A model generated the notes under the pieces. The model had not been told where the DNA came from. It ran no database searches and saw only the letters and a list, made by a program, of their open reading frames with translations. Shown piece after piece: positions 1,484-55,916 of a stretch of 60,642 nt of DNA. Both the position numbers and the translations under genes were made by a program. The stretch's first letter is position 1; the number at the start of each line of letters is the position of its first letter. The DNA comes from Candidatus Hydrogenedens sp. (lineage in GTDB: Bacteria > Hydrogenedentota > Hydrogenedentia > Hydrogenedentales > Hydrogenedentaceae). The stretch spans positions 1-60,642 of the forward strand of contig JBMFRC010000019.1 of the NCBI GenBank assembly GCA_049968235.1, given 5' to 3'.

Positions 1484-1617
1484 AACAAGTAACCCTTATT
1501 AATGTATGAGTTATCTTAACAAATCCTATTTAAGATTGGTGTACAAGACATTATAGAGGAAGAGGAGGAAAGAGGGAAAATGAAATGAAAAGGGGGATTT
1601 TTTATAGGATATATTTT

Positions 1618-2676: not shown

Positions 2677-2733
2677 CTTTTATTCCTTTTTTAATAAATC
2701 CTCTACATGAAACAGTTTTTTTTACATGTAATA

Positions 2734-3822: not shown

Positions 3823-4085
3823 GAATAAAATTCCTTCGGCGGTATCTCCATATCCATGTTCATATCTGTATTTTCAAACTCTGCTAATATCCTTTCCGCT
3901 TCTTCTTCATCCACGACATTAATTGCCATACCTGCATGCACCAATACATACATCCCTTCTCTGGCTTCCGGTGTTAAAGCGAGGGATATTTCTTTAGTTA
4001 TTCCAGCAAATTGAACCTTTGCCATGCGAAGAGTTGGGTCACTTTCATCAATCTGGATAACTTTGCCCGGAATGGCTAAACACAT
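3819..4085 (-). CDS. hypC: Hydrogenase assembly chaperone HypC/HupF
   Basis: 88 aa, N-terminal MCLAIPGKV (essential Cys2 of HypC). Sits between hypF and hypD. Confidence 0.9.
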
Positions 4086-4088
4086 ATA

Positions 4089-10858: not shown

Positions 10859-10911
10859 CTTTTTATTCCTCCTCAGAATTGTGTTCTTCTATTCATTTTT
10901 GATTTCTGAAA

Positions 10912-11748: not shown

Positions 11749-11903
11749 TTCGTTTTTCCTTCTTCAAACTATTTTTTAAAACACTTTAAACATGAATAAT
11801 AAGAAAAAAGTATAAAGCATTGCAATAAAAATAATTTTACAATTCGGGTAAATTGGACAGGGTAGATAAATTTGACTTGTCCAATAGGTTTAAGAGTTAA
11901 AAA

Positions 11904-21681: not shown

Positions 21682-22953
21682 ATGGCACGAAAGAAAACGA
21701 CACGCAGAGAATTTTTGAAAGCGTCTGGAGCGGTAGGGTTAAGTTTTATGGTCCTGCCGAGACGCATATTAGGGGGCAAAGCACACGCCTCGCCAAATGA
21801 AGAATTGACCCGTGCAATTATCGGGGTTGGTGGTATGGGAATGGGACATATCGGATACCCTGGTGCTCGATTACTTGCGGTCTGTGATGTAGATGAAAAA
21901 CACCTAAAGCAGGCACTGGAAAAAGCAGGGCCGGATGTGAAGGGATATAAGGATTATCGAGAAGTACTTGCCCGTGAGGACATTGATATTGTCCATATTG
22001 TTACCCCTCCGCACTGGCATGCTATTATTGCCGTCGATTCTGCCCGTGCAGGTAAGGATATCTGGTGCGAGAAGCCTATGACCCGCACTATTGGAGAGGG
22101 GAAAAAAGTAGTAGAAGCAGTTCAACGGTATGGGCGTATTTTCCGTCTGAATACATGGTTTCGGATGAAAGACACTTTCTATGGGTTTGGCACTACTGCA
22201 TATGAAATAAAAAAAGTTGTTGATAGTGGTATATTAGGCTGGCCCCTGAAAGTTAATGTAGGCGAGTCCACAGGTTTTACTTGGAAATTTTTCTGGTCAG
22301 GAATGACGAATTTAGAACCGCAACCTGTTCCTCCCGAATTGGATTATGACTTCTGGTTGGGTCCTGCTCCATATAAACCGTATCATCCTCATCGTGTTCA
22401 TTCAACCTTCCGTGGATATTGGGATTATGATGGAGGTGGATTGGGGGATATGGGACAGCACTATTTAGACCCGGTCCAATATTTGTTAGGTAAAGATGAT
22501 ACAAGTCCTGTTGAAGTGGAGGTTTCTGCTCCCCCACAACATCCCGATGCGGTCAGTTCTTTCCGCTGGATTCGTCTCCGTTATGAAGATGGTTGCGAGA
22601 TTATTCTTGATGGGGAAGGAAAACCAGGCTTACCCTATCTGGAAGGACCTAAAGGGAAACTCTATCCGGGATTAAAATCTGATGTTCCTAATTTTGAGAA
22701 AAAATTAGCATCATTCCCCAATCCGGAACCCCTTCCTTGCGATTTTGCACATTCTGTTCGCACACGGGAAAAATTCCCTCTAAATGAAGTGAATGGACAT
22801 CGTTCCTGCACCATTGTCAATCTTGCAAAGATTGCCATGCAATTGGGTAGAAGTTTGCGATTTGACCCTGTCAAGCAGGAGTTTATTGGTGATGAAGAAG
22901 CAAACCGACTTATCAACCAACCCATGCGTGCACCCTGGACTTTACAAGTATAA
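21682..22953 (+). CDS. Tat-exported Gfo/Idh/MocA family oxidoreductase (ThuB/glycoside 3-dehydrogenase-like)
   Basis: SD ggagga precedes the ATG at 21682. Twin-arginine signal TRREFLKASGAVGL. Rossmann motif IIGVGGMGMGH. Similar in length and layout to the second copy at 40957. Confidence 0.8.
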   Translation: MARKKTTRREFLKASGAVGLSFMVLPRRILGGKAHASPNEELTRAIIGVGGMGMGHIGYPGARLLAVCDVDEKHLKQALEKAGPDVKGYKDYREVLAREDIDIVHIVTPPHWHAIIAVDSARAGKDIWCEKPMTRTIGEGKKVVEAVQRYGRIFRLNTWFRMKDTFYGFGTTAYEIKKVVDSGILGWPLKVNVGESTGFTWKFFWSGMTNLEPQPVPPELDYDFWLGPAPYKPYHPHRVHSTFRGYWDYDGGGLGDMGQHYLDPVQYLLGKDDTSPVEVEVSAPPQHPDAVSSFRWIRLRYEDGCEIILDGEGKPGLPYLEGPKGKLYPGLKSDVPNFEKKLASFPNPEPLPCDFAHSVRTREKFPLNEVNGHRSCTIVNLAKIAMQLGRSLRFDPVKQEFIGDEEANRLINQPMRAPWTLQV

Positions 22954-32671: not shown

Positions 32672-35317
32672 TTATTCTATAATTGCAATTTGGTTCCAGT
32701 CGTTAATGCTTATATCAATAATGAAAAGATTCTCTTTCTGAGTTATTTTAAATTTATGTGGGATTTGTCTTCCTTTCAAATCAAAGAGAAACACTTGAGG
32801 TTTTTTATGCCATGTAAATGTTTTTGAAATTGATGTGATAATTCGTTCCTCGCCAATGAGATAGCCTTCATTTATTTCAACAGGAGTAAATGGGAACATG
32901 TGGTTGATAGGTCCATATTCTCCGGAACCTTCTCCTTCCAACGGGATAATATCTCCATAGTAATAATACAACAATCCATTTCTTAATGCAGTAATTACTG
33001 ATTTAATAATAATTTCTGCACATTTTTTCTTCCCTTCTTCTTCGAAGCGTTGCGGTCGGATACCCAAAATAATGGGAGTGGATAGGTGTCCTTTAGCACA
33101 ATATATCGTCAAAGGGGGTTTTTTATCCATGTAAGTTAGAGGATTTACTGGGTCGTTTTCAAATTCGGCAAATCGAAATACTTTTGGGATGTTTTGTTCT
33201 TCATTGGAACTCGGGAAACTGTTAATTACGGATATTCCACCTTTGGAGACGATATAATTGAGAATATCTTTCCGGGCTTCTGCTCCAATAAGTCCACAAT
33301 CGGTATATTTTTTTGTAATTTTCCCCGTAACTTCGTCAATATCTACTGTATAGCCGTCCCATTTTTCATAAGTATGTCTATCTACTCTTCCGATGGGTCC
33401 CCAATTCAGGGTAAATTGGTCGATATAAACACCATCCAGACCGACTTCATCCATCAGGAAGTCTATCTGGCTTTTAAAGAAGTTATAACGGTAATTGTTT
33501 CTTTCGATATATAACAATAAATTTAGGGTATCCGGACTGCTCGGATAATAAGTATCCACGATAACTCTACCATCCTCCGTTTGCAAAATAGAATCTAACC
33601 ATGTGTTAATGCCTGCTTTCAAAACCTCGCTTTGTTTTTTATCGAGAATGGCTCCATATTTTCCGGACCGAGGCATAGAACCGCCCGGAAGGATTTCTCC
33701 GCCTTTAATATTCCTTTTGTCTATAGTATACAAATTAGTTTCAGTCATACCCAATATGAACGTATCAGGCTGGGCTTGTTTAATCTTATCAATAATAGGT
33801 TTGACTTGCTTTTTATAATCTTCCCGCGTAAATATTTTGCCCGTCTCCGGATTTAAACTGTAATAATCCAGCCAGGGACCAACTGTATATATTTTAATTT
33901 TTCGTTCTGGAATAATCTGGTCGGAGAAAGCAAAAGGTCCCTCAATGGTATGATTTACACCCCATTCTCTTCGTACCTTGTTAATAAAGGTAAAATAATC
34001 CCCTCCTTTCGATGGATAAAGTGAAAATTGGAATATATAACTCCCGCCCCTGTCCAGACCAAAATGTTTTGCGGAATATTGGAACATATTACTTTTCTTT
34101 GTTATCTCACCTTGTGCCCGAAGCAAATTATCTTCTGCCAGAAAACCTAAGGATGTGTCTCTATAAGCCATAAAGATAGTTGGGTTCTCTGCCACTCCTG
34201 CTAGTCTCTCCATATCCTCAATACCTGCAATACGATATCGAACGGGCATATCTTCTAATATAATTTGATGTGTAATAATAATACCAACAGGTTCATCATT
34301 TTTATTTGTAATGGTTTCTTTTACCGATATTTTTTCACTCTTTGTCTCGATACTACATGTAATTGAATAGTCTTTACCTGAACCTTCGATAGATACCGAA
34401 TTATTCGAGATTTTTTGAATAGTTACTTTCCAATCGGGTGAATTCTCATATGTAGAATCGAAGGAGTTAAAACCGATTTTCTCGGAGGGGTATGAATAGA
34501 TACTAACGAGTTTATATTTTCCCTCTGCTATCTTAATTTCTGTTTCACCTCCTTCTCCAATATTGACGGTGTAATTATCGGTGGAAATACTTTCCCGAGT
34601 ATTTAACCAGGTATATGCAGTCATTTCCGGCTTTGAATATTTTTCCACGAATCCACTCGGTAGATAACCTATCTCAAGATTTTCAATGACCATATCGATG
34701 TTCTTACACGGAACATTCTTGTTAATATATGTATTGATAAAATCAATTTGATTCTTTTCTGCTTTTTCGATTCTCTCATCCGCCCCTATTTCAACATAAT
34801 GAACAACATCTGAAATATTTAATAAATACCAATAACCCTCTTCTTGATAATTCAATATACGCTCATCTAATTTTTCTCCATTCCCAAAATATGTAAGTAT
34901 CACAGGATAGCCATTTCTTGAACTCCACCATGCCTGTTCTCCTGGTATAGTTTTTAATGCAGTTCCGCGATTAATAAGGCGATTGTATCCACTTGACTGT
35001 TCTGAGAAAGAAGTCTGTTTATCTAATTTTTGTCCATTTATTTCGATTCCTAAATATTCATTCCAGCCACCGGGGGCATCTGTATGCAACCGTGCTTTAA
35101 ATTTCATAACCAGAATCATATCCTTTTTCTTCTCAAATGAAGGTAGTTCTACCGAATATTTACTAACATCCGTATCGTGAGAATGTATGATGATGGGAGT
35201 ATCCATTTTCCAAACAGAAGAAAAGACGTTCGTTTCACATAATGAAGCAGAATAAGACGAAATACAGGGACAAAGAAAAACAATGCATAATAAAAAATAT
35301 ACTATTTCTTTTTTCAT
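32672..35317 (-). CDS. Large secreted hypothetical protein (about 881 aa), possible glycoside-hydrolase-like
   Basis: The probable start is the Met of MKKEIVYFLLCIVFLCPC (signal peptide); the ORF extends to 35371. No motif confidently recognised. Rich in aromatic/Asp residues typical of carbohydrate-active enzymes. Confidence 0.4.
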   Translation of the reverse strand: MKKEIVYFLLCIVFLCPCISSYSASLCETNVFSSVWKMDTPIIIHSHDTDVSKYSVELPSFEKKKDMILVMKFKARLHTDAPGGWNEYLGIEINGQKLDKQTSFSEQSSGYNRLINRGTALKTIPGEQAWWSSRNGYPVILTYFGNGEKLDERILNYQEEGYWYLLNISDVVHYVEIGADERIEKAEKNQIDFINTYINKNVPCKNIDMVIENLEIGYLPSGFVEKYSKPEMTAYTWLNTRESISTDNYTVNIGEGGETEIKIAEGKYKLVSIYSYPSEKIGFNSFDSTYENSPDWKVTIQKISNNSVSIEGSGKDYSITCSIETKSEKISVKETITNKNDEPVGIIITHQIILEDMPVRYRIAGIEDMERLAGVAENPTIFMAYRDTSLGFLAEDNLLRAQGEITKKSNMFQYSAKHFGLDRGGSYIFQFSLYPSKGGDYFTFINKVRREWGVNHTIEGPFAFSDQIIPERKIKIYTVGPWLDYYSLNPETGKIFTREDYKKQVKPIIDKIKQAQPDTFILGMTETNLYTIDKRNIKGGEILPGGSMPRSGKYGAILDKKQSEVLKAGINTWLDSILQTEDGRVIVDTYYPSSPDTLNLLLYIERNNYRYNFFKSQIDFLMDEVGLDGVYIDQFTLNWGPIGRVDRHTYEKWDGYTVDIDEVTGKITKKYTDCGLIGAEARKDILNYIVSKGGISVINSFPSSNEEQNIPKVFRFAEFENDPVNPLTYMDKKPPLTIYCAKGHLSTPIILGIRPQRFEEEGKKKCAEIIIKSVITALRNGLLYYYYGDIIPLEGEGSGEYGPINHMFPFTPVEINEGYLIGEERIITSISKTFTWHKKPQVFLFDLKGRQIPHKFKITQKENLFIIDISINDWNQIAIIE

Positions 35318-35789
35318 GTATCTACTCCTTATATATTTAAAAGGAACTATTGAGATAGGAAAAAATCCCATTCCTTTTTTACATGCTTTTATACAACAAT
35401 TTATCTACATATTATATTAGATGCCATTATAAATGAAAGGTAAAACTATGTTGCATAATAGGTGTAAAAAACTTGCATTCACACGGATTCCATCCTACTT
35501 ATGCCGGGATTCATTAATAATTTGGAATGACGAAATATCTTTCGCCCAAATGTAGCATAGATATTTTTGCCTGTGGATGGAGTATATAGAGGAAGAAAAC
35601 AAAAACAAAATGTCTATTTTTTACTCCTATATTTATATTGGAAGGTCCCTGTTCATTTTATATGAAACAATATCATTGTTCCTTGGTTTAACTAAATTGA
35701 ATATTCGTTGCATCCCCTTTGCTGTATCCCTCTAAACAGTTTGATTTTTTTAATAAGAAGTATAAGGGTAGTTTAAGGAAAACCTTTAT

Positions 35790-37898: not shown

Positions 37899-38912
37899 TT
37901 ATTGATAACCAGCTGCCTGAGAAATGATACCAATGACAACACCAACACTGGGCAGTATTGGTTCTGTAGCATTTACATCCGGGTTGTTCATATCAGTGGC
38001 ACCGATGTAGCGAATGAATTCAACATGGCCATCCATGTAAAGCACATTGCAACCACCAGGCAGATGGTTGAAGAAATCAATAGCACCATAAGCAGAGAAT
38101 TGGTCTAACATAACATAGACTTCACTCTGAGCATTGTTCGATGCGGCTGGATTATTAATATCCGTAATCAAGAACCTTTCAATACCTTCACGAAGCCTAT
38201 AGATAGTACTACCTCCTCCATTTCCAACACCTGCAGGAACAGAAATATCTTTATCAGTAATTCCTATCAATTGGGTTGCAGCTGCTTGGTTGGGAGAACT
38301 AATACAGGCACCTATGGGTGTAAGCGAATCATTGATAAGTTTGCTGACTGCTTCTGCCAGTTGAATAGGAACCGGAGCAGTACCGCTAACAGCACTACCA
38401 CCCATCAAAGAAATAAGAGAATTCAATGTTGAGTAGTTGCTTAATGGCGCTGTTCCCAATTCTTTATTACGGTCGAAAACCTAGCCCAGATAAGCATAAC
38501 TGGCATCCAGTCTTTCCGGTTCACAGGTTAAGTAACTGGTCCCATCTTGCTTTTTCAAATAGGCTGCAGTATCCCGTGCATCAGACGGACAAATTGCAAT
38601 GGCTGGGTCTGTCAGATACTCGGGGTAAATAGTATCTACCGCAGGTGCAGCCGCGATTGCAAACTTATAATTTTCACTGGGGTTTTCGCATTTTGTTCTG
38701 ACAACCTGCAACGGTGGGAACCTTTCTCCTTTGGCTTCGTTACAATACATCTTAAGTACGACACCCCACTGCTTCAGATTATTCTGGCAGGAGGAACGGC
38801 GGGCCGCTTCACGTGCACAGGCAAGTGCCGGCAGTAATATTGCGGCGATGATACTAATAATAGCGATGACGACGAGTAGTTCGATGAGCGTGAAACCTTG
38901 TTATTTCATAAC
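37899..38912 (-). pseudogene. DUF1559 prepilin-type (H-X9-DG) protein gene disrupted by two in-frame nonsense codons
   Basis: The minus-strand translation begins [50 protein letters not shown] at codon 3 sits where the intact paralog at 46208 has MKKHGFTL. The same frame continues through a second stop, TAG at 38481-38483, where the paralog has Trp (YLAW vs YLG*). It runs on to ...[17 protein letters not shown]. Both lesions are single-base substitutions and there are no frameshifts. Confidence 0.7.
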
Positions 38913-39248: not shown

Positions 39249-40697
39249 TTACGGTAATTGTTCTGAGGCTAATGCTACTACTCTATAAGCACCGTTATAA
39301 GTACCTACTTTCTTTAATTGAACAATCTGTTCGTTATACATTTTTAATAAATCATCTTCCTCAACAAGCATATTTAGAACCTGTAATGTAAAATCGAGCC
39401 CGACGCATTCTGGTGTACTATCACCAATTTCACTAGCACGAATTGCTCCCCATGCCTCATGACCACCAACTCGTTCCAGTAATAATTTCGGTATAGGATA
39501 AAATGCAAGTTCACTCGGTTTTGTTATTAGCAAATCACTGGGACGCATTAGTAAATTCGTAGTATAAACAGCAGAATAGGTATTATCATGGAGAAAACCA
39601 TGAAGCGTCCCCGATACTTTATTATCCAATGCATTTTTTACAAATTGTTTCGTTTCATCCCAGTGATTATGCAAATTAAGCAGGTCATCAAAGTGTGGAA
39701 TATTTTTCTTAAAGTATTCCAATGCATTTACATGGTCCCCAAAATTTAAGAACAGAATTAATTTTCCTTCTATTATCCATTTCCATAGAAATTTAACAAT
39801 ATTTACGAGCAAATTTTGCTGTGCACCGGCTCCTCCAATAGAAATCAAAAATCTGCGAGGTTCTTTTTTATCCATACGGGATATACGATTTTGCACATCT
39901 TCCTCTAATGGAGCGAGCAACTCATGGTCAACATAATGTCCAACTGCTTTAATTTGACTTTGTGGAATTCCTTTTCCAATACCCGGCGGAATCATCCCCC
40001 GTAAGGTTCGGAAACCAAAATATTCAGATGGACCCTGCACAACCTGTAATGCATCCGGGGAAAGATGAAAACCTAATGGACAATTATCCGGAATAAGGTT
40101 CAAAACCTTACGCATACCTGCAAAACTTGCTCCATGTGCATTGAACGGATGTGTCGCCAGAACAGGGATATTGGGGTCCAGTTGACGATATACATCGGAT
40201 AATATCTCTGCGGTTGCCATTACGGGATAATTCTTTTCCAGTCCCCGATACCATTTCCCCATTAACGGGTCCCAAAAGAAACGGTTAAACATTTTCGATT
40301 TCTGTGAGATGCGAGAACCTAATGAATACCAATAATCCAGATAGCGAATCATTCGTGCTCCTGCACTATTAAAGTTCAACAAATCAAACCAGTAAGGAAT
40401 ATAGCCCGCATAGTTAACAGCAGAGGCTATTGCCATTCCGATGCGATAATGTCCATATCCCATACGAATTGTTCCAATTACCATTCCTTTTTGTGGGTCA
40501 AGGGCTATGCCCTCCTTCTCCGAAAAGACATCATGCAAATTAATAAAAGGAGATAAAATCTCATTGGGTTTTGCAATTAGTGGGAATTCATCTTTACCTG
40601 TATATCCAAACTTTTTGGCAAACTTCCTCTTTAATTTTTCACCTTTTTGTATCGATTTATCTGAAAGAGGCATTCCGAACAAAGTTTTATGGTTCAT
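39249..40697 (-). CDS. Putative glycosyltransferase (GT28 / MGDG-synthase-like)
   Basis: 482 aa. N-terminal GTIRMGYGHYRIGMAIASA resembles the GxGH(x)2A motif of the MurG/MGDG synthase N-domain. A later ISIGGAGAQQ segment resembles the C-terminal nucleotide-sugar binding domain. Low-to-moderate confidence. Confidence 0.4.
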   Translation of the reverse strand: MNHKTLFGMPLSDKSIQKGEKLKRKFAKKFGYTGKDEFPLIAKPNEILSPFINLHDVFSEKEGIALDPQKGMVIGTIRMGYGHYRIGMAIASAVNYAGYIPYWFDLLNFNSAGARMIRYLDYWYSLGSRISQKSKMFNRFFWDPLMGKWYRGLEKNYPVMATAEILSDVYRQLDPNIPVLATHPFNAHGASFAGMRKVLNLIPDNCPLGFHLSPDALQVVQGPSEYFGFRTLRGMIPPGIGKGIPQSQIKAVGHYVDHELLAPLEEDVQNRISRMDKKEPRRFLISIGGAGAQQNLLVNIVKFLWKWIIEGKLILFLNFGDHVNALEYFKKNIPHFDDLLNLHNHWDETKQFVKNALDNKVSGTLHGFLHDNTYSAVYTTNLLMRPSDLLITKPSELAFYPIPKLLLERVGGHEAWGAIRASEIGDSTPECVGLDFTLQVLNMLVEEDDLLKMYNEQIVQLKKVGTYNGAYRVVALASEQLP

Positions 40698-40956
40698 TGT
40701 TATCTCCTTACAAAATCAATTCATTGTTTTTATAGAAAAATTACCATAACAATTCATATTTTAGAAAATCAAATAAAACAAAAGAAATTATAATATCTTT
40801 ATTTCGGGATTGTTAATATCCAATCACTACAAAGGATACCACAATTTCGTTTTTTTTCATTTTATTTTCAAAACTCGTTTTTTATTTTGTTAGTCTGATA
40901 TGATAAAAAAGCCTTTTATTTTTGTAGCAAAACCCAATTTATGGAGGTAAATTTTT

Positions 40957-42282
40957 ATGAAACGGAAAAAACAAAAAAAGGAATCTTTAAATCGAAGGGA
41001 ATTCTTAAAAAGGACGGGGCTTGCCTCGTTAGCAACAGTTGCGTTTCCATATATCATTCCGGGCAGGGCACTAGGACTTGATGGAGCAGTTCCTCCCAGT
41101 GAACGAATTACAATTGGTTGTATCGGTGTTGGTGGTATGGGCACATCCAATATGGAAGGTTTTCTCAGCCAACCTTCTGCACAGGTTGTGGCTATATGTG
41201 ATGTCGATGCAAAGCATCTTGAAACGGCGATGAAAAAAGTAAACGACCGTTATGGCAATCAGGATTGTGCAGGTTATAAAGACTTCCGAGAGTTAATTGC
41301 CCGTGATGATATTGATGCGGTTTCATTAGCGTTACCGGACCAATGGCATGCAATTCCTGCAATTATGGCTGTAAAAGCGGGAAAAGATGTTTATGGTGAA
41401 AAACCATTAGCAGGCTCAATTAAAGAAGGACGAGCCATTGTCGATGCAGTGGAACAATATGGCAGAATCTGGCAAACGGGCAGTTGGCAGAGGTCACAGG
41501 AGCATTTCCGTCAGGCATGTGAACTCGTTCGCAATGGATACATCGGTGAAGTGAAATATGTTGTTGTTGGTTTACCCGCAAAGAACTCCATTAATAAAGG
41601 CAGTACAACCCCAACAGACCCACCTCCGTGGTTCGATTATAATATGTGGTTAGGACCAGCCCCATACGCACCGTATTGTGAAGCCCGATGCCATTGGAAT
41701 TTTCGCTGGATTAGTGATTACGCAGGTGGACAATTAACCGACTGGGCTGGACACCATTGCGATATTGCCCAATGGGGCATGGGAACCGAACTCACAGGAC
41801 CCGTTGAAATCATCCCAAGAGGCGGACATTGGCCTAAAGCAGAAGATGGACTTTTTGATACCGTAGAAGATTATGAATTCCTTTGCAAATTCAAAGAAGG
41901 TTTTGATATGTTAGTAACTGCACGGCAAAAAGGGGGCGTTTTATTCAAAGGTTCGGAAGGCTGGATACATGTTGACCGTGGTGCTTTCGATGCATACCCG
42001 CGGTCTTTAGTTCAAACAGAAATTAAACCTCATGAATTACATTTGTACCGTTCTTCAAATCATATTGGAAACTTTTTAGAATGTGTCCGTACTCGCAAGA
42101 AAACCATCACCCCTGCTGAAGTAGCACATCATTCCATTATGATTGGACATTTAGGACTGATAGCCCTTAAATTAGGCAGACCATTAAAATTCGACCCTGA
42201 TACAGAAACCTTTGTAAATGATTCCGAAGCCAATCGTATGCTCTGCAGACCCATGCGTGAGCCGTGGCACCTAAATATTTAG
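40957..42282 (+). CDS. Tat-exported Gfo/Idh/MocA family oxidoreductase (ThuB-like), second copy
   Basis: Twin-arginine signal NRREFLKRTGLASLATVAF. Rossmann motif IGCIGVGGMGTSN. Colinear with 21682..22953, including the shared C-terminal ...RLI.QPMREPW motif. Confidence 0.8.
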   Translation: MKRKKQKKESLNRREFLKRTGLASLATVAFPYIIPGRALGLDGAVPPSERITIGCIGVGGMGTSNMEGFLSQPSAQVVAICDVDAKHLETAMKKVNDRYGNQDCAGYKDFRELIARDDIDAVSLALPDQWHAIPAIMAVKAGKDVYGEKPLAGSIKEGRAIVDAVEQYGRIWQTGSWQRSQEHFRQACELVRNGYIGEVKYVVVGLPAKNSINKGSTTPTDPPPWFDYNMWLGPAPYAPYCEARCHWNFRWISDYAGGQLTDWAGHHCDIAQWGMGTELTGPVEIIPRGGHWPKAEDGLFDTVEDYEFLCKFKEGFDMLVTARQKGGVLFKGSEGWIHVDRGAFDAYPRSLVQTEIKPHELHLYRSSNHIGNFLECVRTRKKTITPAEVAHHSIMIGHLGLIALKLGRPLKFDPDTETFVNDSEANRMLCRPMREPWHLNI

Positions 42283-42323
42283 TAATTACTTATGAACCTT
42301 CTTTCATACATAGGAGAAATAAT

Positions 42324-45300
42324 ATGAATTATAGGACAAGACAAATAATTGTAGGAAAGTTTCTTATTGCCCTTATTTTGACTTTTATTCCTATGAATCT
42401 TATGGCAGAACCTACAATTAAAGCACTACTATTAACAGGGCAAAACAATCATCGCTGGGACATCAGTTTCCCCATTTTGAAGGATGCTCTGGAAAAAACG
42501 GGACTATTTCAGGTGGATGTGCTTCAATCGCCTGCTCAGGGCGCTGATTTTTCCTCCTTTAAGCCAGAATTCCAAAATTATCAGGTGGTTATTTTAGATT
42601 ACAACGGTGACCCCTGGCCTGAAAATGTAAGACAATCCTTTGTATCTTATGTGGAAAATGGTGGAGGGGTAGTTGTTTACCACGCTGCAAATAATGCTTT
42701 CCCTGACTGGCCTGAATTTAATAAAATTATTGGTCTTGGTGGTTGGGGCAACCGTGATGAGCGCTGGGGTCCGTATGTTCGCTGGCGAGATGGGAAGGTC
42801 GTAAAAGATAATATTCCGGGACCCGGTGGTAGTCATGGAACACAGCATGCCTTTCAAGTTGTAATACGCGACCGCAATCATCCCATTACAAAGGGACTCC
42901 CTCCGATATGGCTCCATGCAAAAGATGAGTTATATGACCGTCTGCGTGGTCCTGCAGAAAACTTAACTGTTCTCGCAACCGCTTATTCCAGTCCCGAAGA
43001 AAAGGGAACCGGTGAACATGAACCGATTCTTTTCACAGTACAATATGGAAAAGGCAGAATTTTCCAGACTGTTTTAGGACACCCGCAAGAGGATACTCCT
43101 GTGGCATTACAATGTGCAGGTTTCCTTACTACATTCCTGCGAGGTGCAGAATGGTGTGCTACCGGTAAAGTAACACAACCTGTTCCCGAAGATTTTCCGG
43201 GACCTGATGAAATTCGTATCTGGGAAGAAAATCGTTATATTCCCCTTGCGGAATTATTGGAACGGATAAAAGGGTATAAAGCCCTGGATAGCCTTGCCAC
43301 AATAACTCAAATTAATGAATACCTCCGTGTTATGACCTCTGATAAAAGGTCTCTGGCAAATGCTGAAAAGGAAATGATTAAATTCCTTCTTTCCGACGCG
43401 ACAATAGATGCCAAAAAATATGTATGCTCAAAATTAGGAGAATTAGGTTCTCAAGCATCTGTCCCCGTTCTAACGGATTTGTTACAGGTCCCTGAATTAT
43501 TTGATTCAGCCCGTTTTGCTCTCGAAAAAATACCCGGGGAACTATCCGCTCGTGCCCTGCGAAATGCGTTACAGACAACCGAAGGGAAAAACCGTATTGG
43601 CATTATTACCTCACTTGGTTTGCGAAAGGATGTCAAGTCCATCTCTTCTATTGCGGTATTTTTGAACAATAGTGACCCTGATATTGTAATTTCTGCGGGT
43701 TCTGCTCTTTGTATGATGGAAGAGGAAAGTGCTCTTTCAGCATTATGGACAGCACATTCACAATCTATTGAATCAGCCCGTTTGAAATTAACACAACATG
43801 CTTTTGCCTGTGCCGATAAAATATTAGCGAAGAAGAAATCCCCCGATGCCCTTGCAGTAATACGTAGTTTATCCGCAGATAGTTCGCTTACACCTTCTCT
43901 ACGGATAGCATCGCTACGCAGTCTATTAAAGTACTCTGAGGAAGAAGGGACAAAAGTATTAGTAAAGGCACTTGGTGACCCTGATACTGATTTTGTTCGG
44001 CTCGTTATTGCCTCTACACCCTTAATAAAGAATAAGCAACTTCTATTAAATGTTGTATGCAAGGAAATGGCTTTTTCTACACCTGAAAATCAAGTGCAAT
44101 TTATCAATCTGTTCGCTTCACAAAAAAGAAAAGATATACTTCCCTATGTAGTTAACAGTCTCAATAGTGAGAATCCTGCAATTCGAGAAGCCAGCATAAA
44201 AGCACTCGGTGTTATAGGTGGCAAATCGGAAATAGAATTACTTATTCCCAAAGCCCTCGGCGAAGGAACAGAGGCAGAACTGGCAAAAGCAAGTCTTGCT
44301 TCGATGCCCGGAGATGACGCCGGACAGGGAATGTTGGATATATTGAAGAAACCCGATATAGAACCCGCTTTAAAGAAACTCCTTCTGCCCTTAGTTGCTA
44401 CACGAAAAGTACCCGGCAGTGAACCCATCATACTAAAATCTGCCGGAGATGCTGACCCGGAGTGTAGAATATCCGCTATAAAGAGCCTTATCGAACAGCC
44501 TAATGCAGAAATGCTTGACACGATTTTACAAATATTGCCGGGAGTCAGTTCCGATGAAGAACAAGAACTGTTTGCAGAACTGATTTTGAAAATTGCATTA
44601 CTGAATCCTGATGAAACGGAAAAACAATTGGTCAAAATTTCATCCGTACTGGATTCCAATTCCGCATTACCGGTGCAAACAGTTCTACTTCATGTCCTCG
44701 CACAGTCGGGGCATGTCAAAGGATGGGAGAAATTAAGCACATGTATAAGTACAAATACACCCGCCGATAAGTTGGGCATTGTAATACAAGCATTAAATAA
44801 ATGGCCAGATGATACGCCTGTTCCTGTCCTGATAGAATTTGCCCGTGCAAATCCTGAACTGCCACATCGAGATAGGTTACTCGAAACATGTTTGAATTTA
44901 ACACAAAAGACAAAATCTACCGATGAAGAAGTTATACAAAGGATTGCTTCTTTATTAGAATTAAATCCTTCTGCATCGGTAAAGAAATCTGCATTAGAAA
45001 AGATTGCCCAGCGGAAAGTTGATAGTTCATTACCCTTACTGCTTAAATACCTTCATGAATCTGAAGACCCTGTAAAGGAAACTTTGATTCGTTCTTTATC
45101 CAATTGGCGAAATGCGGAACCTCTAAATGCTTTATTGGAACTTGCCCGCACAACAGATAACGATTCTATTCGTCGGCAGTCTCTTGCAGGTGTTATTCAA
45201 TTATCGGATAATATTTGCAATATGTCCTCTGAACAACGGACACAATTGTTTAACGATGTGATAGCAATTGGCACAAAGCCTGAGATATTAAAAGGTATCA

Positions 45301-46031
45301 TAGGTGCCTTGCAAAACACATCTTATCCCGAAGCATTAGCCATTGTAACCCAATACCTGGATAATGAACAGGTAAAAAGTGAAGCGGAAGTTGCGGTCGT
45401 TAAACTTTCAAAAACGCTTATAGGAATTGCGACGGATATAGTTGCCCCCGCTCTCGAAAAAGTCATCCATCAAGGACAGATGGAACTAATCAAACAAGAA
45501 GCACAGAAAACTCTGGATATAATCCCGAAATTTGAGGATTTTATTACTACATGGATGGTCTCAGGTCCTTATATAAACGATGAAATTAACGCTAACATGT
45601 TGTATGAGTTCGTATTTGCACCGGAGAAACCCGAAGAAGCAGAAAAAGCATTATGGAAACCCGTTTCACCGGGAACCAATCCTAACAAACCCATGGTGGT
45701 TGAACTCCATAAAATATTAGGAGGGGAAAACCGTGTCGCTTATTTAAGCACTTATGTGTGGAGTGATACAGAGCAGGATGTTAATTTGTTAATCGGTAGT
45801 GATGATGGTGCCCGTATTTGGGTTAACGGGACAAAAGTATTCGGGAAAAATGCAAATCGTCCCTGCGTGCCTGATGATGATACAATAGGAATCCACTTGA
45901 AACAAGGTTGGAACCATATACTCGCCAAAATCCGTCAGGGTAGTGGAGAGTGGGAATTCTGTGCACGTATCCGCAAATCGGATGGCTCCCCATTTGAGCC
46001 AAAACTTAAAACTGCGATATTGCCTAAGTAA
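42324..46031 (+). CDS. Sec-exported multidomain protein: ThuA-like (type-1 glutamine amidotransferase-like) domain + HEAT repeats + C-terminal beta-sandwich (PA14/LamG-like) domain
   Basis: SD aggag precedes the ATG at 42324; the ORF runs from 42264. Signal peptide FLIALILTFIPMNLMA. Residues about 30-300 match ThuA (ALLLTGQNNHRWD...VVILDYNG...ENGGGVVVYHAANNAFPDW...HPIT...YGKGRIFQTVLGHP). About 650 aa of HEAT/PBS-lyase-like repeats follow. The C-terminal 200 aa (WMVSGPY...LIGSDDGARIWVNGTKVFG...) look like a beta-sandwich carbohydrate-binding fold. No CxxCH. Confidence 0.7.
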   Translation: MNYRTRQIIVGKFLIALILTFIPMNLMAEPTIKALLLTGQNNHRWDISFPILKDALEKTGLFQVDVLQSPAQGADFSSFKPEFQNYQVVILDYNGDPWPENVRQSFVSYVENGGGVVVYHAANNAFPDWPEFNKIIGLGGWGNRDERWGPYVRWRDGKVVKDNIPGPGGSHGTQHAFQVVIRDRNHPITKGLPPIWLHAKDELYDRLRGPAENLTVLATAYSSPEEKGTGEHEPILFTVQYGKGRIFQTVLGHPQEDTPVALQCAGFLTTFLRGAEWCATGKVTQPVPEDFPGPDEIRIWEENRYIPLAELLERIKGYKALDSLATITQINEYLRVMTSDKRSLANAEKEMIKFLLSDATIDAKKYVCSKLGELGSQASVPVLTDLLQVPELFDSARFALEKIPGELSARALRNALQTTEGKNRIGIITSLGLRKDVKSISSIAVFLNNSDPDIVISAGSALCMMEEESALSALWTAHSQSIESARLKLTQHAFACADKILAKKKSPDALAVIRSLSADSSLTPSLRIASLRSLLKYSEEEGTKVLVKALGDPDTDFVRLVIASTPLIKNKQLLLNVVCKEMAFSTPENQVQFINLFASQKRKDILPYVVNSLNSENPAIREASIKALGVIGGKSEIELLIPKALGEGTEAELAKASLASMPGDDAGQGMLDILKKPDIEPALKKLLLPLVATRKVPGSEPIILKSAGDADPECRISAIKSLIEQPNAEMLDTILQILPGVSSDEEQELFAELILKIALLNPDETEKQLVKISSVLDSNSALPVQTVLLHVLAQSGHVKGWEKLSTCISTNTPADKLGIVIQALNKWPDDTPVPVLIEFARANPELPHRDRLLETCLNLTQKTKSTDEEVIQRIASLLELNPSASVKKSALEKIAQRKVDSSLPLLLKYLHESEDPVKETLIRSLSNWRNAEPLNALLELARTTDNDSIRRQSLAGVIQLSDNICNMSSEQRTQLFNDVIAIGTKPEILKGIIGALQNTSYPEALAIVTQYLDNEQVKSEAEVAVVKLSKTLIGIATDIVAPALEKVIHQGQMELIKQEAQKTLDIIPKFEDFITTWMVSGPYINDEINANMLYEFVFAPEKPEEAEKALWKPVSPGTNPNKPMVVELHKILGGENRVAYLSTYVWSDTEQDVNLLIGSDDGARIWVNGTKVFGKNANRPCVPDDDTIGIHLKQGWNHILAKIRQGSGEWEFCARIRKSDGSPFEPKLKTAILPK

Positions 46032-46054
46032 AAGAATAAAAATTAACTTACACG

Positions 46055-46103
46055 ACAAGCCTCAATATATTTATATGTTATATGTTGAGGCTTGTTTTTT
46101 TTG
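46055..46103 (+). terminator. Rho-independent terminator after the ThuA-HEAT gene
   Basis: 11-bp stem acaagcctcaa / ttgaggcttgt (46055-46065 and 46085-46095) followed by T8 (46096-46103). About 25 nt after the stop codon. Confidence 0.7.
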
Positions 46104-46207
46104 TAAAATATATTGAATTCTAAAAAAATATAATGTAAAATAGTAAGAGTTATACACAGTATAATTTACTATAATTATCAAACAAAATTACTATTAAGGA
46201 GAATATT

Positions 46208-47134
46208 ATGAAAAAGCATGGTTTCACCCTCATTGAACTTCTCGTCGTTATTGCTATCATCGGTATTCTTGCGGCAATACTATTACCAGCGCTTGCTCGT
46301 GCTCGTGAGGCGGCTCGTCGTTCCAGTTGCCAGAACAACTTAAAGCAAATCGGGCTTACATGTAAAATGTATGCAAACGAAGCCAAAGGGGAAAGATTCC
46401 CACCATCGAAACTATACAATTGCACAGAATTAAGTGGAGAATTTGTAATAGATTGTATGGCGGTGTATCCGGAATATTTAAACGACCCTGCTGTTCTATT
46501 ATGCCCTTCCGCAACAACAGGGAATGACCCGGAGAAAGTATTTAATAAAGCAGATAATCGTGCTCAGGTTATTGGAGACCGCGCCGGAAACTTTGTCCCC
46601 ACTGCTGGGGTTCCTAATACCGAATTTTATCCCTGCGAAGTAGATGATAGTAGTTGTTCTTACTTATATTTAGCATGGAACACATGGTTTCCGGGGATTA
46701 TTGACCGACCCGACCCACCGGAGAATCCTGATGTAAATGTAATGATAGATTGGTTAATGGCGAATAATCCGCAAGTGGTTATTATGTTAGGCAATCTATA
46801 CCCGCGTTTAGGGAATCCATCCCAAAATGATGAGGATTTCCAATTCAACGATGGAACCCAGAACTTAACGATGTATCGTTTGAGAGAGGGAATTGAACGC
46901 TTCATGATAACGGATATCAACAATCCCGCAGCAAGTGCCAAAGCCCAAAGTGAAATCCCTGTGTGTGGAGACTGGGTCAGCACCGATATAGGACAGGAAT
47001 TCAATCATGTACCCGGCGGTTGTAATTTCCTGTATATGGATGGTCATGTCGAATTTATTCGATACCCCGGCAAATGGCCTGTTAATCGCACAATGGCTGT
47101 TCTACAAAGTGAAGAAATTATGGACAGGTTCTAA
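46208..47134 (+). CDS. DUF1559 family protein with prepilin-type N-terminal cleavage/methylation domain and H-X9-DG-like C-terminal motif
   Basis: SD aaggag present. N-terminus [50 protein letters not shown] is the Planctomycete DUF1559 pseudopilin-like head. C-terminus [18 protein letters not shown]. Confidence 0.85.
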
Positions 47135-54680: not shown

Positions 54681-55916
54681 ATGGGTATTTTCATTCTTAT
54701 GATAAGTTTGACCATGTTTGCACAAAGTTCAGATTGGGTCTCTCTTATTGAGAACAATACATTAGACGGATGGAAACCTTTAGGGGGAGAATGGACGATT
54801 CAGGACGGAATAATAAAAGGAAAATTAACAAAAACACCGGAAGAAAAAGATAAGCAAGTAAATATTTGGCTTCTTTATACGAGAAAAGAATTCGCTGACT
54901 TTGAGTTTGAGTGTGAATTTCGGACACAAAATCCTATCAATGGTGGCATTCAGTTTCGAACACAATGGCTACCTTTACTGCCGGTGCCTGAAAATGTTCC
55001 GCTCGAACAAGTCAAATATGATTGCTATGGTTATCAAGCGAATATTGAAACTCGTGAACGGTTTGGGACAGGCAGGATTATTGAAGAGAATGGCAGAGGT
55101 CTGTTAGCAGAACCTGCTCGCGAGGCAGTTATGACATTGAAACAGCGGGATTGGAATCGAATGAAGGTCGTCGCTATTGGACCTAAAATTGAGGTGTATC
55201 TCCATGACATTTTAGCAGGGACAATAGAAGATGATAACTACCTTAAAGGTTATATCCTTTTGCAGGTTCGTGCAGATGAAGTAATTCCAGAGACAGCAGA
55301 AATAGAGTATAGAAACATACGCATAAAAGATTTAGGTCGTAATGGAGATTGGCAGTGTCTTTTTAATGGGAAAGACCTTTCTGGCTGGCAAAATTATGGT
55401 TCGGAAGAATGGGTCGTTGAAGATGGTACTATTGTAGGGAAAAGTGGTCCTAAAAAATCAGAAGGCTATTTAGCAACAGAAAAACGTTGGAAGAACTTTC
55501 GTATTCGGGCTCAATTCAAAATGTTAGGTGAAGGAAATTATGGGCTATTTTATCATTCCAGTATTAAAATGCGTGAGGACGGTTATCCTCTTATTTCCGG
55601 TGTTCAAGTCGAGGTGGAGCCTGGCTATCCAACCAAAACAGGGTTCCTTTATGAAAGTTATAAACGAGGTTGGTTAACAGAACCGCATATTAAAACGCCC
55701 GGTGCATGGGCTCTTCGCAAGGGGGATTGGAATGAGATAGAAGTTAAAATGGAAGGCAATAGAATAATTTCGTGGTTAAACGGTGTTAAAGTAGTTGATT
55801 TTACAGATGCTTCTCCGAATTTACTTGAAGGTTTCTTTGCATTACAACTGCATACCGGTGGTGTTGCAGGTATCCAGTGGAGAGAACTATATGTGCAGGG
55901 AGAACCATTGCCATAA
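54681..55916 (+). CDS. Secreted protein with two tandem DUF1080 (3-keto-disaccharide hydrolase/lyase-like) domains
   Basis: Signal peptide MGIFILMISLTMFAQS. The first domain starts DWVSLIENNTLDGWKPLGGEWTIQDG and ends ...IEYRNIRIKDL. The second starts GDWQCLFNGKDLSGWQNYGSEEWVVEDG and ends ...GIQWRELYV. Both show the jelly-roll pattern of DUF1080. Confidence 0.75.
   Translation: MGIFILMISLTMFAQSSDWVSLIENNTLDGWKPLGGEWTIQDGIIKGKLTKTPEEKDKQVNIWLLYTRKEFADFEFECEFRTQNPINGGIQFRTQWLPLLPVPENVPLEQVKYDCYGYQANIETRERFGTGRIIEENGRGLLAEPAREAVMTLKQRDWNRMKVVAIGPKIEVYLHDILAGTIEDDNYLKGYILLQVRADEVIPETAEIEYRNIRIKDLGRNGDWQCLFNGKDLSGWQNYGSEEWVVEDGTIVGKSGPKKSEGYLATEKRWKNFRIRAQFKMLGEGNYGLFYHSSIKMREDGYPLISGVQVEVEPGYPTKTGFLYESYKRGWLTEPHIKTPGAWALRKGDWNEIEVKMEGNRIISWLNGVKVVDFTDASPNLLEGFFALQLHTGGVAGIQWRELYVQGEPLP

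What the first reader, a model, noticed from the sequence alone, without database searches (positions are those of the whole stretch)
40957..46031. Module 2: second Tat-ThuB-like oxidoreductase paired with a ThuA-HEAT-beta-sandwich protein, paralleling module 1
ThuA and ThuB are the classical two-component 3-keto-trehalose-forming system from rhizobia. In this window the ThuB-like gene overlaps a 1235-aa gene with a Sec signal. Its N-terminal 300 aa are a clear ThuA domain. About 650 aa of HEAT repeats follow, and it ends in a 200-aa beta-sandwich (PA14/LamG-like). The two modules in this window each fuse the ThuB partner domain (DUF1080 in one, ThuA in the other) onto a HEAT scaffold. That points to a lineage-specific periplasmic sugar-oxidation family of scaffolded complexes. 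The C-terminal sandwich may supply substrate binding.
Basis: partly seen in the sequence, partly recalled or inferred. Interest (0 to 1): 0.7.

Follow-up and report, generated by a model that had tools for sequence, protein, structure and literature searches.

The report
Sugar dehydrogenase with multi-domain scaffold partner
A two-gene unit in a Candidatus Hydrogenedens genome pairs an exported sugar-oxidising enzyme with a large exported ThuA-HEAT-sugar-binding protein, a pairing conserved across many uncultured phyla; it probably belongs to the recently described oxidative (3-keto) route for cutting glycosides, but no activity has been tested.

Summary

- **Oxidoreductase gene:** 40957..42282 encodes a GFO/IDH/MocA oxidoreductase with a conserved twin-arginine (Tat) export motif.
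- **Partner gene:** it starts at ATG 42324, behind an AGGAG ribosome-binding site. The genes are 41 nt apart and do not overlap.
- **Partner protein (1235 aa):** Sec signal peptide, ThuA domain (Pfam E 1e-27; PDB 4e5v E 1e-106), about 770 aa assigned as HEAT repeats, and a C-terminal beta-sandwich.
- **Link to module 1:** the two oxidoreductases are 34% identical, and the two HEAT regions are homologous (hhalign 99.6%, 543 colinear columns).
- **Co-conservation:** about 57 of 59 informative metagenome loci carry this oxidoreductase type directly upstream, and 8 of 8 checks in the reverse direction agree.

The family spans several phyla, so it is not lineage-specific. The oxidoreductase's constant partner is the HEAT scaffold, not ThuA. 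ThuA-less HEAT partners exist, and ThuA-only proteins have no oxidoreductase gene nearby. ThuA, DUF1080, the PA14-like domain and F5/8-type-C domains behave as exchangeable cargo.

The oxidoreductase is closest to the Alistipes glucoside 3-dehydrogenase AL3. The likely role is a scaffolded variant of the oxidative glycoside-cleavage pathway. This is a new variant of a known kind. The role of ThuA remains unknown.

The parts
40957..42282 (+). GFO2: GFO/IDH/MocA oxidoreductase, 441 aa, with a Tat signal. Best candidate function: periplasmic glycoside 3-dehydrogenase-like enzyme.
   Evidence: Pfam PF01408 and PF19051. The nearest solved relatives by sequence are 8tdf/8tdh at E 7e-30 over residues 43-267, with the EKP and D-x3-H motifs kept. 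The best structural match is Alistipes glucoside-3-dehydrogenase AL3, TM 0.70.
40957..41076 (+). Twin-arginine (Tat) signal region of GFO2, residues 1-40, with motif NRREFLK at residues 12-18.
   Evidence: Read directly from the translation. R13, R14 and F16 are invariant in alignment A4. TIGR01409 scores 16.3 bits, just under its 16.7 cut-off.
42283..42323 (+). 41-nt spacer between the two genes, with a Shine-Dalgarno AGGAG at 42312-42316, 7 nt before the ATG.
   Evidence: Sequence read.
42324..46031 (+). Gene for the 1235-aa exported protein: signal peptide, ThuA domain, HEAT scaffold, PA14-like sandwich.
42324..42407 (+). Sec-type signal peptide, residues 1-28 (MNYRTRQIIVGKFLIALILTFIPMNLMA).
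   Evidence: Read from the translation: basic N-region, hydrophobic core, then LMA before EP. No signal-peptide predictor was available.
42408..43208 (+). ThuA-family domain, residues ~29-295, of the periplasmic 4e5v-like subfamily.
   Evidence: PF06283 E 1e-27. 4e5v_A E 1.4e-106. Many invariant His, Glu, Asp, Trp and Arg residues in alignment A3. It is 58-63% identical to stand-alone ThuA proteins.
43209..43532 (+). First ~108 aa of the helical region, residues ~296-403. This is the smallest element whose presence tracks with an upstream GFO gene.
   Evidence: ThuA proteins of 405-445 aa stop at the position aligned to residue 403 of this protein and nearly all have GFO2-type genes upstream. 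ThuA proteins of 305-325 aa do not.
43209..45530 (+). HEAT-repeat scaffold, residues ~296-1069. Residues 347-899 are homologous and colinear with the module 1 scaffold.
   Evidence: HEAT_2 x4 and HEAT hits. AlphaRep PDB hits between residues 352 and 665. hhalign 99.6%, 543 columns. The outer boundaries are inferred from the neighbouring domains.
45531..46028 (+). C-terminal beta-sandwich, residues ~1070-1235, PA14 / galactose-binding-like. Putative carbohydrate-binding module.
21682..22953 (+). Module 1 oxidoreductase (GFO1), a Tat-signal paralogue of GFO2.
   Evidence: 34% identity, E 6e-74. PF19051 E 1e-132. TAT_signal and TIGR01409 hits.
22966..25752 (+). Module 1 scaffold protein: signal peptide, HEAT region, DUF1080 (PF06439, 3-keto-glycoside lyase/hydratase family).
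   Evidence: Pfam. Signal peptide read. 100% identical to an NCBI Candidatus Hydrogenedens sp. protein. Scaffold homology with module 2.

Best explanation
Module 2 is a two-gene unit for periplasmic oxidative processing of glycosides.

1. GFO2 is exported folded through the Tat pathway. Like its closest characterised relatives (Alistipes AL3, Bacteroides BT2158), it probably carries tightly bound NAD and oxidises the C3-OH of a glycoside to a 3-keto-glycoside.
2. The Sec-exported 1235-aa protein is a modular scaffold. Its HEAT solenoid, starting with the ~100 residues after ThuA, is the part that co-evolves with the oxidoreductase. It probably docks that enzyme.
3. The C-terminal PA14-like sandwich probably binds the glycan.
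4. The ThuA domain is an autonomous and very conserved module. It probably acts on the 3-keto-sugar chemistry set up by the oxidoreductase, but its reaction is unknown.
5. Module 1 is the same design with a DUF1080 3-keto-glycoside lyase/hydratase as cargo.
6. Holding the dehydrogenase next to the downstream domains would let 3-ketoglucose be passed back for reduction. That would regenerate the bound NAD+ in a compartment without free NAD.

Shown here: domain identities, export signals, paralogy of the two modules, and gene-pair conservation.
Inferred: oxidation at C3, a physical complex, the sugar-binding role, any ThuA catalysis, and channelling.
For: - **Domains and signals:**
- **GFO2 is nearest to AL3** in sequence (E 7e-30, with EKP and D-x3-H kept) and in structure (TM 0.70, next families <= 0.61).
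- **Gene pair conserved:** 7 of 7 diverse homologue loci. About 57 of 59 informative metagenome loci. In the reverse direction, 8 of 8 GFO2-type genes on contigs of 31 kb to 5 Mb have a HEAT-scaffold gene just downstream.
- **HEAT rather than ThuA is the constant partner:** L100 and L103 partners lack a Pfam ThuA hit. The L100 partner is colinear with residues 306-1226 of this protein (E 4e-96). ThuA-only and DUF1080-ThuA proteins have no GFO within 4 kb.
- **Link to 3-keto chemistry:** DUF1080 is fused to this ThuA/HEAT family in at least three arrangements. It recurs as a neighbour together with AP_endonuc_2 TIM barrels.
- **Published functions:** the Tat-GFO oxidises C3 with tightly bound NAD. 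DUF1080 and the TIM barrel are 3-keto-glycoside 1,2-lyases/hydratases. NAD recycling limited the rate in vitro (bioRxiv 10.1101/2024.03.25.586180; PMC8121099).
- **Scaffolds of modules 1 and 2 are homologous**. The two modules sit next to each other in L010.
Against: - No biochemical or interaction data exist for any member of this family.
- GFO2 scores 160 bits against the 750-bit cut-off of NCBIfam BT_2158_fam. It aligns with that model and with AL3 by sequence only over its N-terminal ~60%.
- AL3's sugar-contacting R192 and W195 align to K and I in GFO2, so the substrate, and possibly the regiochemistry, may differ.
- AL/BT enzymes were reported not to work as obligate complexes.
- Gene adjacency can reflect co-regulation alone.
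- Module 2 has no lyase or hydratase domain of its own. The nearest ones are 15 kb (module 1) and 9 kb (54681..55916) away.
- The sandwich does not reach any Pfam carbohydrate-binding or PA14 threshold.
Confidence: 0.5

Rival explanations
1. Classical two-component reading. ThuA is the obligate second subunit of the dehydrogenase, as in rhizobial ThuAB. The HEAT region is only a spacer or tether.
For: ThuAB are reported to be needed for 3-keto-disaccharide formation (Ampomah 2013, as cited in PMC8121099 and PMC10433430). A GFO-ThuA gene pair also occurs in Sinorhizobium sp. K101. ThuA is the most conserved part of the scaffold protein.
Against: The same GFO2 type is followed by ThuA-less HEAT(-sandwich) proteins in L100 and L103. 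Module 1 pairs a paralogous GFO with HEAT-DUF1080 and no ThuA. Stand-alone ThuA proteins 58-63% identical to this domain have no GFO within 4 kb. Rhizobial-type ThuA is only ~24% identical.
Confidence: 0.2
2. Co-regulated but not physically associated. The scaffold protein is an independent exported glycan-binding or envelope-associated protein with its own ThuA enzyme. It shares an operon with GFO2 only because both act in one pathway.
For: AL/BT enzymes are interchangeable between organisms and were reported not to be obligate complexes. In L104 and L105, two or three other genes, including DUF1349, lie between the GFO and the ThuA-HEAT gene. The HEAT region is poorly conserved in sequence.
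Against: Adjacency is very tight (20-130 nt) and is kept across phyla and across changes of cargo domain. The linkage follows a specific ~100-aa element.
Confidence: 0.2
3. Not 3-keto-glycoside chemistry. GFO2 oxidises another position or another substrate class, such as an inositol, an aldose C1 or an amino sugar. The scaffold serves that process.
For: GFO/IDH/MocA enzymes are functionally very diverse. GFO2 fails the BT_2158 equivalog cut-off and differs at two AL3 sugar-binding positions. Other GFO structures also match with Foldseek probability 1.0.
Against: AL3 is the best hit in both sequence and structure, followed in the structure search by the 3-oxidising DgpA. DUF1080 is repeatedly fused to and neighbours this scaffold family.
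Confidence: 0.1

Closest known systems
Oxidative (non-Koshland) glycoside cleavage clusters BT2156-BT2160 of Bacteroides thetaiotaomicron and AL1-AL5 of Alistipes sp. (Liu 2021, PMC8121099; Nasseri 2024, bioRxiv 10.1101/2024.03.25.586180)
   Same: A Tat-exported GFO/IDH/MocA oxidoreductase that is the best sequence and structure match of GFO2. Periplasmic location. Association with DUF1080 lyase/hydratases and AP_endonuc_2 TIM barrels in related loci.
   Different: Those systems are described as separate single-domain proteins with no HEAT scaffold and no ThuA component. They were reported not to be obligate complexes. GFO2 is not a member of the NCBIfam BT_2158 equivalog (160 against 750 bits), and its C-terminal half shows no detectable sequence match to AL3.
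ThuAB of Sinorhizobium meliloti / Agrobacterium tumefaciens (thuEFGKAB operon, Ampomah 2013; known here only through citing papers)
   Same: A ThuA-family (PF06283) protein encoded next to a GFO-family oxidoreductase and linked to 3-keto-disaccharide formation.
   Different: From what is known of thuEFGKAB, the rhizobial proteins are short and act after ABC uptake. The rhizobial-type pair examined here (L102) has no Tat motif or HEAT region. Rhizobial-type ThuA is ~24% identical, with marginal E-values, and its GFO partner is of the C3 type rather than PF19051. In this window both proteins are exported, ThuA is one domain of a 1235-aa protein, and no ABC transporter gene lies beside the pair.
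PDB 4e5v, 'putative ThuA-like protein' (a structure with no assigned function in its PDB entry), and stand-alone Bacteroidota ThuA-domain proteins
   Same: The same ThuA subfamily: E 1.4e-106 to 4e5v, and 44-56% identity to Parabacteroides, Runella, Alistipes and Bacteroides proteins. In the Bacteroides MAG locus L002, ThuA closes a GFO-TIM-GFO-DUF1080 cluster.
   Different: They are single-domain proteins of ~300 aa without HEAT or a sandwich domain. They are often not next to any GFO gene.
Scaffold proteins that carry carbohydrate-binding modules and dock enzymes, such as cellulosomal scaffoldins (an analogy recalled from general knowledge, not tested)
   Same: The same idea: a non-catalytic backbone with a sugar-binding module and exchangeable enzyme partners.
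   Different: No cohesin or dockerin modules. The backbone is an alpha-solenoid, the location is periplasmic, and docking is only inferred.

Membership tests
Pfam ThuA (PF06283) | Score above the curated gathering threshold over the full domain | tested here: met
   98.2 bits against a cut-off of 33.4, profile positions 2-208 of 209. 4e5v E 1.4e-106.
Classical rhizobial ThuAB system | ThuA-family gene adjacent to a GFO-family oxidoreductase gene | tested here: met
   41-nt spacing in the window. Conserved in related loci.
Classical rhizobial ThuAB system | Close sequence relationship (orthology) to rhizobial ThuA | tested here: not met
   Rhizobium and Sinorhizobium plasmid hits are only 23-25% identical, E 0.009-0.5. 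The hit examined was confirmed to be a ThuA gene (L102), but it was not shown to be the thuA of thuEFGKAB.
Classical rhizobial ThuAB system | Cytoplasmic enzymes acting after ABC (thuEFGK) uptake | tested here: not met
   Both products carry export signals. The flanking genes are a DUF6937/6938 gene and a DUF1559 gene, not an ABC transporter.
Classical rhizobial ThuAB system | Formation of 3-keto-disaccharides | not testable with these tools
   Needs enzymology.
Glycoside 3-dehydrogenase, BT_2158 family (NCBIfam NF058561) | Score above the equivalog cut-off over the full length | tested here: not met
   160 bits against 750. Only model positions 1-253 of 487 are matched.
Glycoside 3-dehydrogenase, BT_2158 family (NCBIfam NF058561) | Tat signal, implying export of a folded, cofactor-loaded enzyme | tested here: met
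   NRREFLK motif. RR.F is invariant in 27 homologues.
Glycoside 3-dehydrogenase, BT_2158 family (NCBIfam NF058561) | Catalytic EKP lysine and the Asp-x3-His pair (AL3 D248/H252) | tested here: met
   EKPL and TDWAGHH align with EKPL and GDMACH of 8tdf. D262 and H266 are invariant.
Glycoside 3-dehydrogenase, BT_2158 family (NCBIfam NF058561) | AL3 sugar-contacting residues R192 and W195 | tested here: not met
   They align to K and I in GFO2. The alignment in this loop is of moderate confidence.
Glycoside 3-dehydrogenase, BT_2158 family (NCBIfam NF058561) | Overall fold closest to AL3 | tested here: met
   Foldseek top hits are 8tdf and 8tdh, TM 0.70/0.68, ahead of all other GFO families. Model pLDDT 81.6.
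DUF1080 / 3-keto-glycoside lyase-hydratase (PF06439) | PF06439 domain present in the module 2 protein | tested here: not met
   No hit. The C-terminal sandwich is a separate module that precedes DUF1080 in the ~1352-aa relatives. Module 1's protein does have it (E 2e-39).
PA14 domain (PF07691) | Pfam threshold, or a clear structural match | tested here: inconclusive
HEAT repeat proteins (PF13646 / PF02985) | Repeat hits above threshold | tested here: met
   HEAT_2 128 bits in 4 stretches. HEAT 40.7 bits.

The most novel reading that the evidence does not exclude
The HEAT solenoid is a periplasmic docking scaffold for a Tat-exported dehydrogenase with bound NAD. It carries exchangeable cargo: ThuA, DUF1080, a PA14-like domain or an F5/8-type-C domain. 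Together these would form a self-contained, redox-neutral 'oxidative glycosidase' assembly that hands 3-keto intermediates back to the dehydrogenase. In this reading ThuA is a so far unrecognised catalytic step of the 3-keto-glycoside pathway.
Probability: 0.3. Interest if true: 0.75.

Novelty: new variant of a known kind. Interest (0 to 1): 0.55.

Why it matters
Two questions in the 3-keto-glycoside field are still open.
- No biochemical role for ThuA was found in the searched literature. The genetic link to 3-keto-disaccharides dates from 2013.
- It is unclear how a periplasmic oxidoreductase with non-exchangeable NAD is re-oxidised.

This family offers natural fusions that tie ThuA physically to DUF1080 lyase/hydratases, and genetically to an AL3-like dehydrogenase. 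It also singles out a ~100-residue element as a candidate docking site. Both ideas can be tested directly with recombinant proteins.

The family has hundreds of sequence clusters across uncultured phyla (Hydrogenedentota, Planctomycetota, KSB1, Marinimicrobia, Aminicenantes). Databases name its members only 'HEAT repeat protein' or 'predicted dehydrogenase'. The oxidative glycan-breakdown route may therefore be under-counted in environmental carbon-cycling surveys.

Tried and rejected
- **Genome-contig scan:** It returned only one close homologue plus stand-alone ThuA loci, so taxon names come from source labels rather than GTDB genomes.
- **Promoter/terminator scan of 40600..46300:** counts were at shuffle level. 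No operon boundaries could be called.
- **Literature on ThuA function:** no biochemical role found. The primary ThuAB paper (PMC3754603) and the Nature version of Nasseri 2024 are not held. I used the bioRxiv version and citing papers instead.
- **pSymB 320-365 kb:** the record has no annotation and there is no ThuA hit in that stretch. The thuAB genes were not located, so direct identities to S. meliloti ThuA and ThuB were not obtained.
- **C-terminal sandwich as a degenerate DUF1080:** rejected. It precedes a genuine DUF1080 in the ~1352-aa class and has a PA14/GH2-N-like fold.
- **Haem binding:** rejected for this protein. The translation has no CxxCH motif.
- **Chance adjacency:** rejected on the synteny counts.
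- **Stand-alone ThuA neighbourhoods in Parabacteroides and Runella plasmids:** uninformative.
Full report
**1. The observation**

ORF listing shows 40957..42282 (+, 441 aa) and a mechanical ORF 42264..46031 (+, GTG start, 1255 aa).

An AGGAG at 42312-42316 lies 7 nt upstream, and the upstream gene stops at 42280-42282. The genes are therefore separated by 41 nt and do not overlap.

Pfam results:
- The first product is a GFO/IDH/MocA oxidoreductase (PF01408 E 2e-17; PF19051 E 1.3e-32).
- The second carries ThuA (PF06283, E 1e-27, 98 bits against a cut-off of 33.4) and HEAT repeats (HEAT_2, four stretches, E 1.6e-37).
- Nothing significant is found in its last ~190 residues.

Residues 31-293 of the large protein match PDB 4e5v, 'putative ThuA-like protein', at E 1.4e-106.

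The oxidoreductase starts MKRKKQKKESLNRREFLK. R13, R14 and F16 are invariant in 27 homologues, so the Tat motif is conserved. The large protein starts with a typical Sec signal (MNYRTRQIIVGKFLIALILTFIPMNLMA). I read this by eye because no signal-peptide predictor was available.

**2. The C-terminal domain**

The last ~195 residues are a conserved module. It is present in the ~1120, ~1230 and ~1352-aa length classes of homologues. In the ~1352 class it is followed by a genuine DUF1080 domain, so it is not a decayed DUF1080.

An AlphaFold2 model built from a 28-sequence alignment has mean pLDDT 94.7. It shows two terminal helices followed by a beta-sandwich.

'PA14-like' is reasonable. 'LamG-like' is not supported.

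**3. Relation to module 1**

- Module 1 consists of an MFS_2 transporter (20171..21460), a Tat-GFO (21655/21682..22953), a 928-aa protein with a signal peptide, HEAT region and DUF1080 (22966..25752), and a GxGYxYP protein.
- The two oxidoreductases are 34% identical over their full length (E 6e-74).
- The two HEAT regions align colinearly by BLASTP (538 aa, 23% identity, E 1e-11).
- They also align profile against profile: hhalign Prob 99.6%, E 7e-24, 543 columns, with module 1 residues 99-654 against module 2 residues ~347-899.
- The scaffolds are therefore homologous in register, not merely both made of HEAT repeats.
- Module 1's protein is 100% identical to an NCBI entry from a Candidatus Hydrogenedens sp. 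MAG, which identifies the source of the window.

**4. How widespread is it?**

The ThuA-HEAT architecture has at least 648 clusters at E <= 1e-5. Source names include Planctomycetota, Sedimentisphaerales, Hydrogenedentes, Marinimicrobia and Aminicenantes. A KSB1 contig carries the pair, and source names on GFO2 homologues include Calditrichaeota. It is not lineage-specific.

Only module 1's HEAT-DUF1080 form is narrow, with 11 clusters at >= 47% identity.

No source gives a functional name. The labels are 'HEAT repeat protein', 'type 1 glutamine amidotransferase' or 'family 16 glycoside hydrolase'. No NCBIfam model covers the protein, and I found no paper describing the architecture.

**5. Co-conservation**

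- In seven diverse homologue loci (35-56% identity, lengths 941-1356 aa), a GFO gene lies immediately upstream on the same strand, 20-130 nt away. It is of the PF01408+PF19051 type in six of the seven.
- In L010, modules 2 and 1 are neighbours, separated by a GH2 gene.
- A metagenome scan with the family alignment found 502 relatives. I analysed the best 80 by tblastn.
- Among loci whose ThuA protein carries a helical extension and that have enough upstream DNA, about 57 of 59 have a GFO2-type (or, less often, GFO1-type) gene directly upstream. The exceptions are L022 and L030. Some loci are near-duplicates, so these counts are approximate.
- In the reverse direction, eight GFO2-type genes (60-82% identical) on contigs of 31 kb to 5 Mb all have a HEAT-scaffold gene downstream. 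Six are directly adjacent. Two follow a DUF1349 gene and one or two inserted genes.

**6. What the oxidoreductase is actually linked to**

The same analysis splits this periplasmic ThuA subfamily into architectures:

| Architecture | Length (aa) |
|---|---|
| ThuA alone | 305-325 |
| DUF1080-ThuA | 540-573 |
| ThuA plus ~100-aa helical extension | 405-445 |
| ThuA-HEAT | ~950-1000 |
| ThuA-HEAT-sandwich | ~1120-1250 |
| DUF1080-ThuA-HEAT-F5/8-type-C | ~1245-1280 |
| ThuA-HEAT-sandwich-DUF1080 | ~1352 |

- ThuA-alone and DUF1080-ThuA proteins are 58-63% identical to the window's ThuA domain. Yet none has a GFO gene of any tested type within 4 kb on either strand.
- The 405-445-aa proteins end at the position aligned to residue 403 of the window protein, and nearly all have the GFO upstream.
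- In L100 and L103, GFO2-type genes (66% and 69% identical) are followed by 954- and 948-aa HEAT proteins with no Pfam ThuA hit. The L100 protein is colinear with residues 306-1226 of the window protein, sandwich included (27% identity, E 4e-96).
- Module 1 likewise pairs a GFO with a ThuA-less scaffold.

The constant partner of the oxidoreductase is therefore the HEAT scaffold, minimally its first ~100 residues. ThuA, DUF1080 and the two kinds of galactose-binding-like sandwich are exchangeable cargo.

**7. What the oxidoreductase resembles**

- Its best solved relatives by sequence are 8tdf and 8tdh (E 7e-30 and 5e-28, residues 43-267). The EKP motif and an Asp-x3-His pair are conserved.
- Foldseek identifies these entries as the Alistipes sp. 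glucoside-3-dehydrogenase AL3.
- They are also the best structural match of an AF2 model of GFO2 (pLDDT 81.6): TM 0.70, against <= 0.61 for DgpA, GFOR, inositol dehydrogenases and the P2B11 glucuronide-3-dehydrogenase.
- GFO2 is nevertheless not a member of the NCBIfam BT_2158 equivalog (160 bits against 750, N-terminal half only).
- AL3's R192 and W195 align to K and I in GFO2.

**8. The known pathway**

[quoted passage not shown] They proposed that the Tat-exported BT2158 makes 3-keto-disaccharides using a tightly bound cofactor (PMC8121099).
- Nasseri et al. showed that AL3/BT3 oxidise C3 with non-exchangeable NAD (bioRxiv 10.1101/2024.03.25.586180).
[quoted passage not shown] - Re-oxidation of the bound NADH limited the rate in vitro. 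One reason is that 3-ketoglucose isomerises to a furanose.
- ThuA is not part of that scheme.
- In the related loci examined here, DUF1080, AP_endonuc_2 TIM barrels, further GFOs and sometimes multihaem cytochromes accompany the pair. A Bacteroides MAG has GFO-TIM-GFO-DUF1080-ThuA.

**9. The most likely mechanism**

Module 2 is most likely a scaffolded variant of this oxidative glycoside-cleavage system.
- GFO2 oxidises a glycoside at C3 in the periplasm.
- The HEAT solenoid docks it.
- The PA14-like sandwich holds the glycan.
- ThuA performs an unidentified step on the keto-sugar.

Proximity to lyase/hydratase domains would favour return of 3-ketoglucose to the dehydrogenase and so regenerate NAD+. 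Those domains are in cis in relatives and in the paralogous module 1 here.

The domain identities, export signals, paralogy and gene linkage are shown. Oxidation at C3, docking, glycan binding, ThuA catalysis and channelling are inferred. I give the overall reading a probability of about 0.5.

**10. Relation to classical ThuAB**

- The ThuA domain is a clear member of Pfam PF06283.
- Rhizobial-type ThuA proteins are only 23-25% identical, with E 0.009-0.5.
- The one I inspected (Sinorhizobium sp. K101) is a 215-aa protein behind a 366-aa GFO of the C3 type, with no export signal.
- I could not obtain the S. meliloti thuAB genes themselves or the primary paper.
- The window's pair works like ThuAB only in the loose sense of 'GFO next to ThuA'. 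It is not an orthologue.

**11. Verdict**

The finding is real and better supported than a sequence-only reading could show. It is a new variant of a known kind rather than a new kind of system.

Its value lies in three things:
- natural fusions that tie ThuA to 3-keto-glycoside enzymes;
- a candidate docking element;
- evidence that this route is common in uncultured glycan degraders.

Interest 0.55.

Noticed in passing
window 54681..55916 (+) and 58144..60390 (+): A 411-aa protein with two tandem DUF1080 (PF06439) stretches (E 5e-66). This is a third DUF1080 gene in the window. A GH95 glycoside hydrolase lies 2 kb downstream.
   Followed up: partly
window 9083..13391 (-): A sugar-utilisation trio: SSF sodium:solute symporter, AP_endonuc_2 (xylose-isomerase-like TIM barrel, 278 aa) and an FGGY carbohydrate kinase. 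The TIM barrel belongs to the Pfam family that includes the 3-keto-beta-glucoside lyases, but I did not compare it with them.
   Followed up: no
window 46208..47134 (+) and 37899..38459 (-): A DUF1559 / prepilin-type N-methylation protein lies directly downstream of module 2, and the same arrangement is found in L001. The ORF at 37899..38459 shares the C-terminal ...[20 protein letters not shown]...[17 protein letters not shown] segment but lacks the N-terminal methylation motif. It may be a truncated paralogue or have a mis-called start.
   Followed up: partly
window 39249..40697 (-): A DUF6937+DUF6938 protein (482 aa, E 1e-72 to 1e-88) is transcribed divergently from module 2 across a 260-nt AT-rich spacer. 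An ORF of the same length (482 aa) sits in the same position in the 81%-identical locus L001.
   Followed up: partly
window 27785..29818 (+): A 677-aa fusion of a zinc ribbon, a Ser/Thr protein kinase and an FGE-sulfatase (formylglycine-generating-enzyme-like) domain, just after module 1.
   Followed up: no
window 32672..35371 (-) and 7576..8718 (-): Two sizeable ORFs (899 aa and 380 aa) with no Pfam hit at all.
   Followed up: no
window 293..7059 (-): Hydrogenase maturation genes (AIR-synthase-like HypE, HypD, HypF, HypB-type GTPase), in keeping with a Hydrogenedens origin.
   Followed up: no
L014 13583..14943 and L015 12451..14787: In two ThuA-HEAT loci (a metagenome contig and an Aminicenantes MAG), the run of GFO, TIM-barrel and ThuA-HEAT genes ends with a large protein that gives faint multihaem cytochrome c hits. 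It could be an electron outlet for the periplasmic dehydrogenases. No such gene was found among the ORFs scanned in the window.
   Followed up: no
L104 6370..7053 and L105 6406..7089: A 227-aa DUF1349 protein sits between the GFO2-type gene and the ThuA-HEAT gene in two loci. It may be a further accessory component.
   Followed up: no
L028 2182..5919 and L044 3317..7087: A relative architecture: DUF1080-ThuA-HEAT-F5/8-type-C (1245-1256 aa). DUF1080 is at the N-terminus, and a discoidin-type domain takes the place of the PA14-like sandwich.
   Followed up: yes
P0152/P0044 and P0232/P0055 (same contigs): The oxidoreductase is much better conserved than its scaffold partner on the same contigs: 60-67% against 35% identity to the window proteins.
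   Followed up: partly
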